This document shows, piece after piece, positions 2,759-62,757 of a stretch of 64,000 nucleotides of DNA. This DNA comes from Tubiluchus corallicola. Lineage: Eukaryota > Animalia > Priapulida. Numbering within the stretch: the first letter of the stretch is position 1; each line of letters begins with the position of its first letter. The notes under the pieces were generated by a model. The model saw only the letters and a program-made list of their open reading frames with translations. It was not told the origin of the DNA and made no database searches. Made by a program: the position numbers and the translations under genes. Where the stretch lies: the NCBI GenBank assembly GCA_030141605.1, contig JAQGDQ010000850.1, positions 1 to 64,000 on the forward strand. Reading direction: 5' to 3'.

Positions 2759-2906
2759 GAACTGGAACAGATCGAGGAATCGTGGAAATCTGAAACAGCT
2801 GAACTGATGCAGACAATTCAACTTTTACAAGAGGAAAACAAGAAGTTGTCTAGTGACTTAGCTCTGAAGGAAGGCAGCAATCAGATGTCTTGTTCAATGA
2901 CTGATA
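2759..2906 (+). CDS. RILPL1: RILP-like protein, internal coding exon (first in window; 5' exons lie upstream)
   Basis: tctcttag acceptor; reads ELEQIEESWKSETAELMQTIQLLQEENKKLSSDLALKEGSNQMSCSMTD, a coiled coil resembling RILPL1 after RH1; donor A|gtaagt, phase 1, matches next exon. Confidence 0.85.
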
Positions 2907-4927
2907 GTAAGTCTTTGCTGTAGATGAGCTCAAATGTCTTGTTTAATGACTGATAGTAAGTTGCTGTAGATGACCTCAAATGTCTTGTTTAATGACTGAT
3001 AGTAAGTCTTTGCTGTAGATGACCTCAAATGTCTTGTTTAATGACTGATAGTAAGTCTTTGCTGTAGATGACCTCAAATGTCTTGTTCAATGACTGATAG
3101 TAAGTCTTTGCTGTAGATGACCTCAAATGTCTTGTTCAATGACTGATAGTAAGTCTTTGCTGTAGATGACCTCAAATGTCTTGTTTAATGACTGATAGTA
3201 AGTCTTTGCTGTAGATGACCTCAAATGTCTTGTTCAATGACTGATAGTAAGTCTTTGCTGTAGATGACCTCAAATGTCTTGTTCAATGACTGATAGTAAG
3301 TCTTTGCTGTAGATGACCTCAAATGTCTTGTTTAATGACTGATGGTAAGTCTTTGCTGTAGATGAGCTCAAATGTCTTGTTCAATGACTGATAGTAAGTC
3401 TTTGCTGTAGATGACCTCATGTGTCTTGTTCAATGACTGATAGTAAGTCTTTGCTGTAGATGAGCTCAAGTGTCTTGTTCAATGACTGATAGTAAGTCTT
3501 TGCTGTAGATGAGCTCAAGTGTCTTGTTCAATGACTGATAGTAAGTCTTTGCTGTAGATGACCTCAAATGTCTCTGATAGTAAGTCTTTGCTGTAGATGA
3601 CCTCAAGTGTCTTGTTTAATGACTGATGGTAAGTCTTTGCTGTAGATGAGCTCAAATGTCTTGTTCAATGACTGATAGTAAGTCTTTGCTGTAGATGACC
3701 TCAAATGTCTTGTTCAATGACTGATGGTAAGTCTTTGCTGTAGATGAGCTCAAATGTCTTGTTCAATGACTGATAGTAAGTCTTTGCCGTAGATGACCTC
3801 AAATGTCTTGTTCAATGACTGATAGTAAGTCTTTGCCGTAGATGACCTCAAATGTCTTGTTCAATGACTGATAGTAAGTCTTTGCCGTAGATGAGCTCAA
3901 ATGTCTTGTTCAATGACTGATAGTAAGTCTTTGCCGTAGATGACCTCAAATGTCTTGTTCAATGACTGATAGTAAGTCTTTGCTGTAGATGAGCTCAAAT
4001 GTCTTGTTCAATGACTGATGGTAAGTCTTTGCTGTAGATGACCTCAAATGTCTTGTTCAATGACTGATGGTAAGTCTTTGCTGTAGATGAGCTCAAATGT
4101 CTTGTTTAATGACTGATAGTAAGTCTTTGCCGTAGATGACCTCAAATGTCTTGTTCAATGACTGATGGTAAGTCTTTGCCGTAGATGACCTCAAATGTCT
4201 TGTTCAATGACTGATGGTAAGTCTTTGCCGTAGATGAGCTCAAATGTCTTGTTCAATGACTGATAGTAAGTCTTTGCCGTAGATGACCTCAAATGTCTCG
4301 TTCAATGACTGATAGTAAGTCTTTGCTGTAGATGAGCTCAAATGTCTCGTTCAATGACTGATAGTAAGTCTTTGCTGTAGATGAGCTCAAATGTCTTGTT
4401 CAATGACTGATAGTAAGTCTTTGCTGTAGATGAGCTCAAATGTCTTGTTCAATGACTGATAGTAAGTCTTTGCTGTAGATGACCTCAAGTGTCTTGTTTA
4501 ATGACTGATAGTAAGTCTTTGCTGTAGATGAGCTCAAATGTCTCGTTCAATGACTGATAGTAAGTCTTTGCCGTAGATGAGCTCAAATGTCCCGTTCAAT
4601 GACTGATAGTAAGTCTTTGCTGTAGATGAGCTCAAATGTCTTGTTCAATGACTGATAGTAAGTCTTTGCCGTAGATGACCTCAAATGTCTCGTTCAATGA
4701 CTGATAGTAAGTCTTTGCTGTAGATGAGCTCAAATGTCTCGTTCAATGACTGGTAGTAAGTCTTTGCCGTAGATGAGCTCAAATGTCTCGTTCAATGACT
4801 GATAGTAAGTCTTTGCTGTAGATGAGCTCAAATGTCTTGTTCAATGACTGATAGTAAGTCTTTGCTGTAGATGACCTCAAATGTCTTGTTCAATGACTGA
4901 TAGTAAGTCTTTGCTGTAGATGAGCTC
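2881..4927 (+). repeat. 49-bp tandem array (about 42 copies) spanning an exon end and 5' splice site
   Basis: unit ATGTCTTGTTCAATGACTGATA|GTAAGTCTTTGCTGTAGATGACCTCAA. Confidence 0.97.
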
Positions 4928-5672
4928 CACATACATAAAATTTTTCACAGTTTATAGTTATAAAGGCTGAAGAAATGGAAAAGCACGAAGAAAATTAAAA
5001 CAATCATCTTGTGTTACATCAGGCGGCATATTTTTCATATTTTCATATAAATATAAAATTTGTGAGAGCTTCGCGAAGACATACACTTTATAATTGTGTG
5101 CTAATGCACCAGAAATTTGGTCAACAATCGTGTTTTCTATAAAACCCAATGTTAGATGTAATGAACTTTTATTATCTAGCATGAAATTATCGAGAAAGTG
5201 CTCGAAAGTTACTAAAAATTTAATTTTGTATATCAAGTTTTCTGGCTAGAAACTAGTATTGCAATTGCAAAAAACTCGTGTTTTCACCCACCCCCCATTC
5301 CTCTCGGTGGCCCCGATTCAAAAAGTAAACCATCAATGAGACGACACTAGATCGAGACCTTTCATTTGATATATAGATTGCCGAAAATGGTGCCGCCATT
5401 GGAGCTGTAGCCTTAAATCATGTTTATATATAAAAACCCCATACCACCAAAATTATTACTATTACTAAAATATTACCTATAATTATTATTATATGTAATA
5501 TTTGATTAATAATTGATCGATATATAATTGATTAAAATTTGTTCTTTATTCAGAACTAAAAGAGTTCTCTTATTCATTGTTTTGACACGGTTTTACAGTT
5601 CCTTTCGATGTTTTTCTTATACGTGGATTCGTTACTAAACCACCTTAATTAATAAAATGTTCTCATGAACAG

Positions 5673-5794
5673 GTATGTTAGCCGATACGGACTTTGCAAT
5701 GGTAGCGAAGTTGAAGGAAACCATTGACAAGCAGCGCGAACAGCTCCGGTCTTCCGACAGATCCCTGAGTCAGAAAAACGTGGATCTGGACGCT
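5673..5794 (+). CDS. RILPL1: RILP-like protein, coding exon
   Basis: aacag acceptor; (S)MLADTDFAMVAKLKETIDKQREQLRSSDRSLSQKNVDLDA (LKE.IDKQR motif); gtaagt donor, phase 0. Confidence 0.9.
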
Positions 5795-60250: not shown

Positions 60251-60649
60251 TTAAATACAACAAAGTACAAATTCTTCACAAATTATAGATGCGTTTGTCC
60301 CACATTTCTAGTGGATACCGCTACTTGCACTTTAACAATATTTTTTGACGATTTCACTTCCAGATAACAGAACTGGTTTCTACACCCACTTTAAGTTATC
60401 TGAGTTCAAATCGTTTTCACGCGTGAAGCGGCGTGAAGTGAAAACTTAACGCGTTAACGCGGCTGGTGTTGACAGCTTTAAGGCTCGAACTCACGCCTCG
60501 CAGCCTATCTATAGCTTACAGCCCACGGACAACGACCCCAGGTCAACAATATCGGTCGCAATGCCCACCAAAAATATTACAGTTCTGAGTTTCGTGGAAC
60601 AAGCGAAGCTGAGGTACAAAGCACAAGAAAACCCTCCACTTACGTAAAT

Positions 60650-61302
60650 CCTAAAAAATTCGTCTTGAAATTTTATACCACTTACTTATTGCCTTTTTGC
60701 ATATTAGACTTGCGTCGGCAGTAACGTTGTATAAAACATGCAAATTTAAACTCCCGCGATGACCGTTCGACGCAGCCATTTTGACTATAAGTCATTTGAA
60801 ACAAGTTTAGATAACATTGTGTAAAGTTTGAAAAAATAATCAGAGCATGCGTAACGCACAGGTCACAAAATAAATAAAATTTAAAATTACTGTATCTTGT
60901 AAAAAAGATTAAAAATATGTTTTTGGTTAGTGGATGGCGCACCCTAGCGGCTGAGTCAACGACATTTTACCAATTGGTGAAAACATTTTAAATAATTAAT
61001 AATTTTCTTTTCTAGTTACATAAGTCTCTCAAGCAGGTAAGCAAAACGCTAAGCAACATAACTTTGCATGGAGAGTTTTCTTGGGACATAGTTTAACATT
61101 TCGTTTTCTTTCCCTGATTTACGTGGCGTAGTGACGTCATGTAATGGCGGCGTCGGAACAGCATCGCGGGAGATTTAAAATGAAAACAAACAAAAAATCC
61201 TTTCAACGCGAATACGACATGCGCATAAAATTCCTGTAAAGTAATATAATCTTTTAAGGCGATTTTTCTGAAACCTACTTCAGGTGCCCCTTTTCTTGTC
61301 CT
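60650..61302 (-). mobile_element. Kolobok-like element (family F)
   Basis: reverse-orientation copy ending CTTGTCCT|TTAA. Confidence 0.7.
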
Positions 61303-61705
61303 TTAACTATCAGGTTAGCTGTGTGAGTACATCACATATCAGTTCCCACTGCATATCTTCACGTACAATGTAGAATACGGCTCGTACAGACGCTCAAAAC
61401 ACGCTAGTAGAACTCTTTAACCAAATCATTTCAAATCATTTTCAGATAATAATAATAAACGCTTTCTTTCACAAACATAAACACAAGTACAATTAACAAA
61501 TCTCAAACTTAAATAAACAACGGATACAGGAACACGTCCCTACAAATACAGGGCTCTTTTTAAGCGAAGTTGATTAACAAATACCGCAATTTATAACAAA
61601 CACATCTACATATACATGACAGTGCTGATTGAAATCATTAATTCTTAGCAAAATTAATTCGTACCTCTTAATTTAGAGTCACGTGATGTTGAAATTTTAT
61701 GCACG

Positions 61706-62757
61706 TAGTTAATCAACAATTTCTTATCTTCCACATCTCCACTTTTACATAGTTAATCAACAATTTCTTAACTTCCACATCTCCACTTTTACATAGTTAA
61801 TCAACAATTTCTTATCTTCCACATCTTCACTTTTACATAGTTAATCAACAATTTCTTAACTTCCACATCTTCACTTTTACATAGTTAATCAACAATTTCT
61901 TATCTTCCACATCTTCACTTTTACATAGTTAATCAACAATTTCTTGTCTTCCACATCTTCACTTTTACATAGTTAATCAACAATTTCTTAACTTCCACAT
62001 CTCCACTTTTACATAGTTAATCAACAATTTCTTAACTTCCACATCTGCACTTTTACATAGCTAATCAACAATTTCTTAAGTTCCACATCTCCACTTTTAC
62101 ATAGTTAATCAACAATTTCTTAACTTCCACGCCTCCACTTTTACATAGCTAATCAACAATTTCTTAACTTCCACATCTCCACTTTTACATAGCTAATCAA
62201 CAATTTCTTAACTTCCACATCTCCACTTTTACATAGTTAATCAACAATTTCTTAACTTCCACATCTGCACTTTTACATAGTTAATCAACAATTTCTTAAC
62301 TTCCACATCTCCACTTTTACATAGTTAATCAGCAATTTCTTATCTTCTACATCTCCACTTTTACATAGTTAATCAACAATTTCTTAACTTCCACATCTCC
62401 ACTTTTACATAGTTAATCAACAATTTCTTAACTTCCACATCTCCACTTTTACATAGTTAATCAACAATTTCTTAACTTCCACATCTCCACTTTTACATAC
62501 TTAATCAACAATTGCTTAACTTCCACATTTCCACTTTTACATAGTTAATGAACAATTTCTTAACTTCCACATCTCCACTTTTACATAGTTAATCAGCAAT
62601 TTCTTATCTTCCACATCTCCACTTTTACATAGTTAATCAACAATTGCTTAACTTCCACATCTCCACTTTTACATGGGTAATCAACAATTTCTTAACTTCC
62701 ACATCTCCACTTTTACATAGTCAATCAACAATTTCTTAACTTCCACATTTCCACTTC
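61706..62757 (-). repeat. 44-bp tandem array (about 24 copies) spanning a putative exon end and donor
   Basis: minus-strand unit GTGGAGATGTGGAAGTTAAGAAATTGTTGATTAACTAT|GTAAAA. Confidence 0.95.

What the first reader, a model, noticed from the sequence alone, without database searches (positions are those of the whole stretch)
2881..62757. Recurrent architecture: unrelated tandem arrays that amplify an exon end plus its 5' splice site
Seen: three arrays with no shared sequence (49 bp x about 42 at 2881-4927; 47 bp x about 10 at 7073-7536; 44 bp x about 24 at 61706-62757). Each begins inside a coding exon and repeats the last 22-38 exonic nt plus the GT donor into the intron. All three are on the donor side, and no array in the window spans an acceptor. 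Unit sizes are similar and none is a multiple of 3. Reading past the first donor meets a stop within one unit. That is 3 of about 12 donors in the window. Inference: either a donor-targeted duplication process, or selected multi-U1 landing pads (protection from premature cleavage in repeat-rich introns, decoy donors feeding NMD, recursive splicing). I do not know of a named system with this layout. The null is a genome-wide tendency to tandem duplication, which is also visible here.
Basis: partly seen in the sequence, partly recalled or inferred. Interest (0 to 1): 0.85.

Follow-up and report, generated by a model that had tools for sequence, protein, structure and literature searches.

The report
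Splice-donor minisatellites in RILPL1 introns
In the RILPL1 trafficking gene of a likely priapulid worm, two exon ends with their splice signal stand 42 and 10 times head-to-tail at the start of the next intron, likely a harmless repeat type already known from human, lancelet and chicken genes, while the third array reported lies in a dispersed repeat and is likely not at an exon at all.

Summary
All three arrays exist at the stated places. Arrays 1 (49 bp x 42) and 2 (47 bp x 10) start at true donors of a RILPL1 gene whose best match is Priapulus caudatus. Array 3 (44 bp x 24) is a stretch of a dispersed repeat, and its supposed exon found no homolog, so the count is 2 of 11 donors, not 3 of 12. 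Two is above a uniform null (expected 0.18, P 0.014) but comes from a picked window. Donor versus acceptor (2/11 vs 0/12, P 0.22) and non-3n unit length (14 of 19 arrays in the window) are not significant. The layout is a named kind: human F7, 6-16, CBS, lamin B2 and PDGF minisatellites, lancelet 'mirages' (both boundaries) and chicken 'exon stuttering'. This scan has noted it many times in other genomes, on donors and acceptors. Likely mechanism: local duplication, array growth, and tolerance because the first donor would be used; no RNA junction could be seen. One lead remains: a P. caudatus isoform carries a 30-residue decayed copy of the same exon end as array 2.

The parts
2759..2906 (+). 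RILPL1 exon a (first exon modelled in the window; the upstream exons were not found in it); its last 26 bases are the exonic part of array 1's first unit
   Evidence: tblastn of P. caudatus RILPL1, 72% over 39 aa; AG and GTAAGT ends, phase 1
2881..4927 (+). Array 1: 49 bp x 42; first unit spans the donor at 2907; 41 pseudo-donors; read-through stop 17 bases into the intron; each unit also holds an acceptor-like TAG
   Evidence: mean pairwise identity 0.954 over 40 full-length copies
5673..5794 (+). RILPL1 exon b; no array at either end
   Evidence: one contig of run X6 (RNA is a guess) begins to match exactly at 5673 (table 8)
6932..7108 (+). RILPL1 exon c; its last 33 bases are the exonic part of array 2's first unit
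   Evidence: 67-72% to P. caudatus; junction SDK|EG matches DDK|EG in homolog P0003; 7109 is the only in-phase GT in the last 70 bases of the exon and the 2 after it
7073..7536 (+). Array 2: 47 bp x about 10; first unit spans the donor at 7109; last copy diverged; read-through stop 21 bases into the intron
   Evidence: mean pairwise identity 0.967 over 9 copies; contig depth shows no dispersed family
9973..10142 (+). RILPL1 exon d (RILP/RH2 domain start)
   Evidence: PF11461 E 2.9e-11; 85% to P. caudatus
11130..11237 (+). RILPL1 exon e
   Evidence: 86% to P. caudatus
12030..12282 (+). RILPL1 last coding exon, stop TAA at 12280-12282
61706..62757 (-). Array 3: 44 bp x 24, an amplified inner segment of a dispersed repeat; not shown to contain a splice donor
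61670..62810 (.). Fragment of the dispersed repeat that holds array 3; right edge at 62810 seen, left edge not mapped (reaches at least about 61673)
   Evidence: depth and loose ends in runs X1, X4, X5 (tables 2, 7, 8)
62717..63040 (-).
   Evidence: 4 of 5 differences in other contigs change the residue
20191..43253 (-). Alpha carbonic anhydrase gene, 7 modelled exons, 6 donors and 6 acceptors, none inside an array (control set); first exon rests on sequence only
   Evidence: PF00194 in 5 of 6 exon pieces scanned

Best explanation
Arrays 1 and 2 are minisatellites whose first unit spans a real splice donor of RILPL1, likely born by a short local duplication and likely tolerated because the first donor would still be the one used. 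Shown: unit make-up, intact exons, 95-97% identical copies, 2-3 base overlaps at the unit joints (TC, AAG), a diverged end copy in array 2, and a stop before the second donor. Inferred: a 47-49 base slip or repair duplication across the exon end, then growth and homogenisation by unequal exchange; upstream-first donor choice as shown for human F7; any slip to a later donor would give a premature stop and be cleared by nonsense-mediated decay, so the cost is low. Survival is filtered: the same duplication wholly inside an exon would shift the frame, while one that runs over the donor leaves the mRNA unchanged. Array 3 is an ordinary tandem expansion inside a dispersed repeat.
For: Gene model and first-donor position. 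Copy structure. The window is full of tandem arrays: 19 with period 22 or more, plus 13 simple-repeat tracts, and 17 of the 19 touch no splice site. Donor columns are no more conserved than chance and the first donor is no more open in predicted folds than later ones. Same layout with first-donor use in F7, lamin B2, PDGF (PMC1557585); lancelet mirages do not disturb splicing, show concerted evolution with end copies left out and occur at both boundaries (PMC3087553); chicken exon stuttering has median exon part 36 bp and 1-44 copies (PMC12954441). Array 3 in a dispersed repeat.
Against: No RNA junction across either array was seen, so first-donor use is inferred from other species; in 6-16 and CBS the next two pseudo-donors are used too. 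Two of five donors in one gene carry arrays, more than a uniform null gives (P 0.014 whole window, 0.008 gene spans). Seven copies of array 1 have ATG|GTAAGT, a better consensus match than the real donor. Both arrays have a stop within one unit against 2 of the 9 other donors (Fisher P about 0.11 by hand). A contig from a run 8% different in this region runs from exon c through the donor 13 bases into the second unit (X5 record 17, depth 8), a hint that array 2 is old. P. caudatus isoform X1 holds a decayed copy of the same exon end.
Confidence: 0.75

Rival explanations
1. Exon ends are mutational hot spots for short duplication in this lineage (for example through polymerase pausing or RNA-DNA hybrids at the donor), so arrays arise at donors more often than elsewhere; they are still functionless.
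For: 2 of 5 RILPL1 donors, expected 0.14-0.18 arrays on donors; near-equal unit sizes (47, 49); the same exon end duplicated in P. caudatus isoform X1 (26 of 5000 shuffles reach the score against isoform X2, 0 of 5000 against exon c of the window).
Against: One picked window: over the 29 noted windows of this genome a P of 0.014 has about a one-in-three chance of turning up once (by hand; windows differ). 0 of 6 carbonic anhydrase donors. Counting any boundary gives P 0.055. Acceptor-side mirages are published.
Confidence: 0.14
2. The extra donors are kept by selection, as U1 landing pads that guard against premature cleavage or as a copy-number dial that sends part of the RILPL1 transcripts to nonsense-mediated decay.
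For: 42 of 42 copies keep GTAAGT and 9 of 10 keep AAG|GTGAGT; 7 copies improve the -1 position; early stops in both arrays; hint of array 2 in a diverged run.
Against: With 9 of 49 and 4 of 47 variable columns, invariant donor columns are expected by chance (P 0.27, 0.41). Concerted evolution alone keeps copies alike. The two introns are only about 2.8 kb. The last copy of array 2 has a weakened donor. The known cases show no such role in the passages read.
Confidence: 0.07
3. Array 3 is a third true case: a lineage-specific gene has taken a piece of a dispersed repeat into an exon and uses TAT|GTAAAA at 62716 as donor, joining a phase-0 exon at 57645-57391.
For: Open frame of 108 codons behind a plausible acceptor at 63041; a phase-compatible 84-codon frame with acceptor and stop lies downstream; GTAAAA serves as donor in the carbonic anhydrase gene, though after CAG.
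Against: No homolog for either frame; 4 of 5 differences change the residue against 1 of 6 in RILPL1 exons (small numbers, only rows shown by the tool); weakest donor of 12; the end copy reads TAC|GTGCAT like the dispersed family's flank; about one stop-free frame of this length is expected by chance in a 64-kb window of this base content (hand estimate).
Confidence: 0.15
4. The arrays are assembly artefacts.
Against: Copies differ in patterned ways; contigs of three runs lie on array 2 and on the unit of array 3.
Confidence: 0.02

Closest known systems
Human exon-boundary minisatellites: F7 IVS7 (37 bp, 5-9 copies), 6-16/IFI6, CBS IVS13, lamin B2 (100 bp), PDGF intron 4 (81 bp). PMC1557585; seen: abstract, synopsis, Introduction, Discussion, further passages. 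The other four genes are known to me only through its Introduction.
   Same: First unit spans an exon-intron boundary, donor repeated into the intron, unit 30-100 bp, exon left intact.
   Different: More exonic sequence per unit here (26 and 33 bases versus 4 in F7), 42 copies in array 1, two cases in one gene, AT-rich invertebrate; donor use not measured here.
Lancelet 'mirage' minisatellites (Adh3, globins BflGb6 and BflGb9, troponin C, PGBD5). PMC3087553 and PMC3902484; seen: matching passages only. The Adh3 paper itself was not seen.
   Same: Tandem copies of an exon-intron boundary in a marine invertebrate; several per gene; concerted evolution with end copies left out; units 10-160 bp; proposed route to new exons or introns.
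   Different: Mirages occur at both 5' and 3' boundaries; here only donors (2 of 11 versus 0 of 12, not significant). Likely a priapulid, a group for which my one search found no such report. Length instability not tested here.
Chicken 'exon stuttering' on dot chromosomes. PMC12954441; seen: abstract, passages, second part of the results section on repeat expansion, Discussion. Its supplementary Fig. S5, which may allow a donor/acceptor count, was not read.
   Same: Lateral part of an exon with its donor or acceptor copied through the intron; exon part median 36 bp; 1-44 copies; span median 1,751 bp; strictly local.
   Different: Tied to GC-rich dot chromosomes in birds; this window is about 36% GC and its introns are also full of dispersed repeats.
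Tandem repeats inside non-autonomous dispersed elements (general knowledge; element family not identified)
   Same: Array 3: an inner 44-base segment of a high-copy element amplified in one copy.
   Different: Element class, ends and target site not determined.

Membership tests
Exon-boundary minisatellite (F7 type / mirage / exon stuttering): arrays 1 and 2 | Head-to-tail repeat whose terminal unit spans a real exon-intron boundary | tested here: met
   (boundary from protein homology and phase, not from an RNA junction)
Exon-boundary minisatellite: arrays 1 and 2 | Further copies lie in the adjacent intron and the coding exon stays intact | tested here: met
   six-exon model translates to one open protein colinear with homologs
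Exon-boundary minisatellite: array 2 | Local origin from single-copy sequence, not a dispersed element | tested here: met
   summed depth 706 and 438 over the array against about 150-200 single copy and 1e4-1e6 for dispersed repeats; unit encodes the conserved exon end
Exon-boundary minisatellite: array 1 | Local origin from single-copy sequence, not a dispersed element | not tested
Exon-boundary minisatellite: arrays 1 and 2 | mRNA uses the first donor only or mainly | tested here: inconclusive
   no listed holder is on record as RNA; no exon-exon joint among the rows shown
Exon-boundary minisatellite: arrays 1 and 2 | Copy number varies between alleles or cells | not testable with these tools
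   only short contigs that break at repeats are held
Exon-boundary minisatellite: arrays 1 and 2 | Concerted evolution, end copies less homogenised | tested here: met
   0.954 and 0.967 mean identity; variants shared in runs of neighbours and a diverged last copy in array 2; array 1's last copy is not diverged
Exon-boundary minisatellite: array 3 | Terminal unit spans a real exon-intron boundary | tested here: inconclusive
   no homolog, weak donor, no contig of the one possible RNA run; leans against
Exon-boundary minisatellite: array 3 | Local origin from single-copy sequence | tested here: not met
   unit is part of a dispersed repeat
Recursive splicing sites (definition recalled) | Pyrimidine tract and AG directly followed by GT, in a very long intron | tested here: not met
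   array 1 has its TAG 32 bases before the next GT; array 2 has AG|GT but exon sequence, no pyrimidine tract, before it; introns about 2.8 kb
Regulated unproductive splicing (alternative donor to NMD; definition recalled) | Alternative donor introduces a premature stop | tested here: met
   stops end 17 and 21 bases into the introns, upstream of further junctions
Regulated unproductive splicing | The unproductive form is made, regulated and conserved | not testable with these tools
   no RNA reads and no relative's genome held

The most novel reading that the evidence does not exclude
The end of RILPL1 exon c is a recurrent duplication site in priapulids with two fates on view: an in-frame copy that became a 30-residue alternative coding segment in P. 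caudatus isoform X1, and an out-of-frame copy that grew into the 47-base donor minisatellite here, perhaps from the same ancient duplicate (the intron start reads VSLQ in frame, as does the P. caudatus insert). This would be a natural example of the proposed route from mirage repeats to new exon sequence, in a lineage with donor-prone duplication.
Probability: 0.15. Interest if true: 0.55.

Novelty: new member of a known kind. Interest (0 to 1): 0.2.

Why it matters
As it stands it extends a known, likely harmless repeat type to a probable priapulid and gives a tidy test case: 41 spare donors, 7 of them closer to consensus than the real one, behind one exon. RNA-seq of this gene would test whether upstream-first donor choice, shown for human F7, holds in an ecdysozoan. 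If a genome-wide count showed a real donor excess, or if the P. caudatus insert proved to be an exonised copy of the same duplication, it would bear on how short duplications create new exon sequence. The stronger claim of a recurrent donor-only architecture rests on two arrays in one gene and is not established.

Tried and rejected
No whole genome is held, so the genome-wide intersection could not be run. Sequencing runs: no RNA holder listed; this is no evidence on expression. The one run guessed to be RNA (X6) gave 0 contigs on 62520-63095, which is no proof of absence, and no exon-exon joint in the rows shown for 4930-12900 (513 further joint rows not shown). Homolog searches for the frame at 63040-62717: Pfam 0 families; 0 of 46 candidates; ESM Atlas no usable hit; 2 hits among 1.84 billion representatives, both internally repetitive proteins with weak, non-overlapping matches, rejected. 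For the frame at 57645-57394: one weak Pfam row far under its cut-off, Atlas best score 0.83, 0 of 12 candidates. Non-3n unit length rejected as a signal (14 of 19 arrays). Donor conservation across copies not significant. Predicted folding does not single out the first donor (unpaired 0.43 versus 0.30-0.65 in array 1; 0.30 versus 0.24-0.36 in array 2). The 30-bp array at 12437-12742 looked like a repeated acceptor, but lies behind the stop codon of the model, so it was not counted. A copy of the P. caudatus insert was sought in intron 7109-9972 in three + strand frames: best scores 22-26, in or near simple repeats, none credible. Paper searches for a genome-wide donor-versus-acceptor count or for such arrays in priapulids found nothing relevant (strict multi-term searches, so weak blanks).
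Full report
Observation. Tandem Repeats Finder lists all three arrays at the stated places: 49 bp x 42.0 (2881-4927), 47 bp x 9.8 (7076-7536) and 44 bp x 23.9 (61706-62756). 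They are three of 19 arrays with period 22 or more that I counted, beside 13 simple-repeat tracts; arrays of period 13-19 were left out of that count. The window is about 36% GC. No genome is held.

The genes. A 55-residue exon at 9976-10140 matches Pfam RILP; its best hits among 82 are RILP-like protein 1 of Priapulus caudatus at 85%, so the source is likely a priapulid, though not that species' sequence (66% identity over 304 aligned residues). tblastn places six exons. With AG and GT ends the model 2759-2906, 5673-5794, 6932-7108, 9973-10142, 11130-11237, 12030-12282 translates as one open protein colinear with homologs. A carbonic anhydrase gene of seven modelled exons lies on the minus strand (PF00194 in 5 of 6 pieces scanned); its first exon rests on sequence alone. 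That gives 11 donors and 12 acceptors.

Arrays 1 and 2. Array 1 repeats the last 26 bases of exon a and the first 23 of the intron; 42 of 42 copies keep GTAAGT, and 7 have G at -1, a better consensus match than the real donor. Of three in-phase GT sites near the end of exon a, 2907 is the only one with a consensus hexamer; the residues there are a variable linker, so homology fixes this donor only to a few codons. Array 2 repeats 33 exonic and 14 intronic bases; the junction SDK|EG matches DDK|EG in homolog P0003, and 7109 is the only in-phase GT in the range checked. Copies are 95.4% and 96.7% alike (two shortened copies of array 1 and the last copy of array 2 left out), joints show 2-3 base overlaps, and the tenth copy of array 2 is diverged. 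Read-through stops end 17 and 21 bases into the introns, before the second donor, so unit length modulo 3 does not matter. Contig depth over array 2 (706, 438) is near single-copy level (about 150-200) and far from the dispersed repeats in the same introns. In run X5, 8% different here, one contig of depth 8 runs from exon c through the donor and 13 bases into the second unit, a thin hint that the array is old.

Array 3. On the minus strand a 108-codon open frame ends in the first unit. It found no credible homolog in Pfam, a word-indexed search, the ESM Atlas or phmmer over 1.84 billion representatives; a possible next exon at 57645-57394 found none either. Laying contigs on 62520-63095 showed that the unit and the stretch to 62810 belong to a dispersed repeat: summed depth of about 1,600-47,000 against 158 in the single-copy part, a shared edge at 62810, and contigs from other sites with one unit that run on into the sequence found after the array here. 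In the single-copy part 4 of 5 listed differences change the residue, against 1 of 6 in RILPL1 exons (only rows the tool showed). The supposed donor matches the consensus at 5 of 9 places, the lowest of 12 scored. A lineage-specific exon built partly from the repeat is not excluded (about 0.15), but the array is not shown to lie at a donor.

Chance. Collapsing arrays and placing 19 units at random, 0.18 are expected on a donor; P for two or more is 0.014 (0.008 within gene spans, 0.055 for any boundary); had array 3 counted, P would be 0.0009. The window was picked for this feature; over the 29 noted windows of this genome a P of 0.014 has about a one-in-three chance of appearing once (hand figure). 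Donors versus acceptors, 2 of 11 against 0 of 12, gives P 0.22, and 14 of 19 arrays have non-3n units. No other exon end or start has a tandem copy. Against my reading, early stops are seen in 2 of 2 arrays but only 2 of 9 other donors.

Mechanism. Shown: structure, intact exons, early stops. Inferred: a short duplication across the exon end, growth and homogenisation by unequal exchange, and tolerance because the most upstream donor is chosen. The last step rests on human F7, where identical and even stronger downstream pseudo-donors stay silent (PMC1557585, Introduction and Discussion); the same Introduction says that 6-16 and CBS also use the next two pseudo-donors, so leakage is possible and would feed nonsense-mediated decay. 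Signs of selection on the extra donors were not found: invariant donor columns are expected by chance (P 0.27, 0.41) and predicted folding does not single out the first donor. No RNA junction could be seen, so donor use is untested.

Known kinds. The layout is described in five human genes (PMC1557585), as 'mirages' in lancelet globin, Adh3, troponin C and PGBD5 genes, where both boundaries are duplicated and splicing is reported as undisturbed (PMC3087553, PMC3902484; passages), and as exon stuttering in 236 chicken introns, donor or acceptor, exon part median 36 bp, 1-44 copies (PMC12954441). I found the F7 paper by my own search; the mirage and stuttering papers came as leads from earlier notes of this scan and I then read the parts named. 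The scan's notes hold 63 findings for donor-type words and 28 for acceptor-type words in other genomes; these are unchecked word hits, not a rate. Supplements of these papers were not read; the chicken Fig. S5 may bear on donor versus acceptor frequency. Five searches found no genome-wide count and no priapulid report.

A lead. P. caudatus isoforms X1 and X2 differ by 30 residues at the junction where array 2 sits. The insert aligns without gaps to the 29 residues before it (26 of 5000 shuffles reach the score) and to the end of exon c of the window (0 of 5000); no other of the proteins held scored as high twice. So the same exon end seems to have been duplicated, in frame, in a relative's predicted isoform. 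Coiled-coil periodicity may inflate such scores, the isoform is a database prediction, and its DNA could not be read. The read-through of the window's intron start, VSLQ, equals residues 4-7 of the insert; VS is forced by the donor consensus, so this may be chance.

Verdict. Partly confirmed: two real donor-spanning minisatellites in one gene, a new member of a known kind, likely neutral; the third case and the donor-only rule are not supported. Interest 0.2.

Noticed in passing
P0001 residues 239-268 (P. caudatus RILPL1 isoform X1), junction equivalent to window 7108/9973: 30-residue insert that looks like a decayed tandem copy of the preceding exon end, at the junction where array 2 lies; possible exonised duplicate.
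   Followed up: partly
window 33919-34994: 31-bp array of about 35 copies ends 29 bases before the acceptor of carbonic anhydrase exon 4 (33890, minus strand), so it reaches the branch-point region without spanning the AG; an acceptor-side near miss.
   Followed up: partly
window 12437-12742: 30-bp array of 10 copies, 155 bases behind the RILPL1 stop codon; each unit holds a pyrimidine run ending in CAG and the last is followed by G|GTAAAT; likely 3' UTR or just downstream.
   Followed up: partly
window 11337-11937: 84-bp array of 7 copies fills most of RILPL1 intron e; contig depth of 3e4-4e4 in run X1 shows a dispersed family, like array 3.
   Followed up: partly
window 28204-28594, 33117-33702, 36441-37204: Long trinucleotide tracts (ATG/CAT, TAG, TTA, TTG) of 400-760 bases lie within 40-160 bases of carbonic anhydrase exon edges; simple repeats seem to crowd near exons here.
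   Followed up: no
window 20191-43253, minus strand: Alpha carbonic anhydrase with a hydrophobic start and a hydrophobic C-terminal end, likely secreted or membrane anchored; the first exon adds an unusually long 80-residue leader with no Pfam match.
   Followed up: partly
window 52145-52950 and 56283-56567: Interstitial telomere-like arrays: a 17-bp unit built on TTAGGG (about 45 copies) and a decayed hexamer tract.
   Followed up: no
window 63093-63476, plus strand: Frame with one internal stop that reads like the C-terminal end of a LINE reverse transcriptase (resemblance recalled, not searched), directly beside the supposed exon of array 3.
   Followed up: no
window 20584-21132, plus strand: 183-codon open frame just outside the last carbonic anhydrase exon on the other strand; only a weak Pfam row far under cut-off; may be an exon of a further gene.
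   Followed up: partly
runs X4, X5: Run X5 bears the same species label as X1 but differs by about 8% in RILPL1 exon c, and X4 by about 3-5%; likely different or cryptic species under one label.
   Followed up: no
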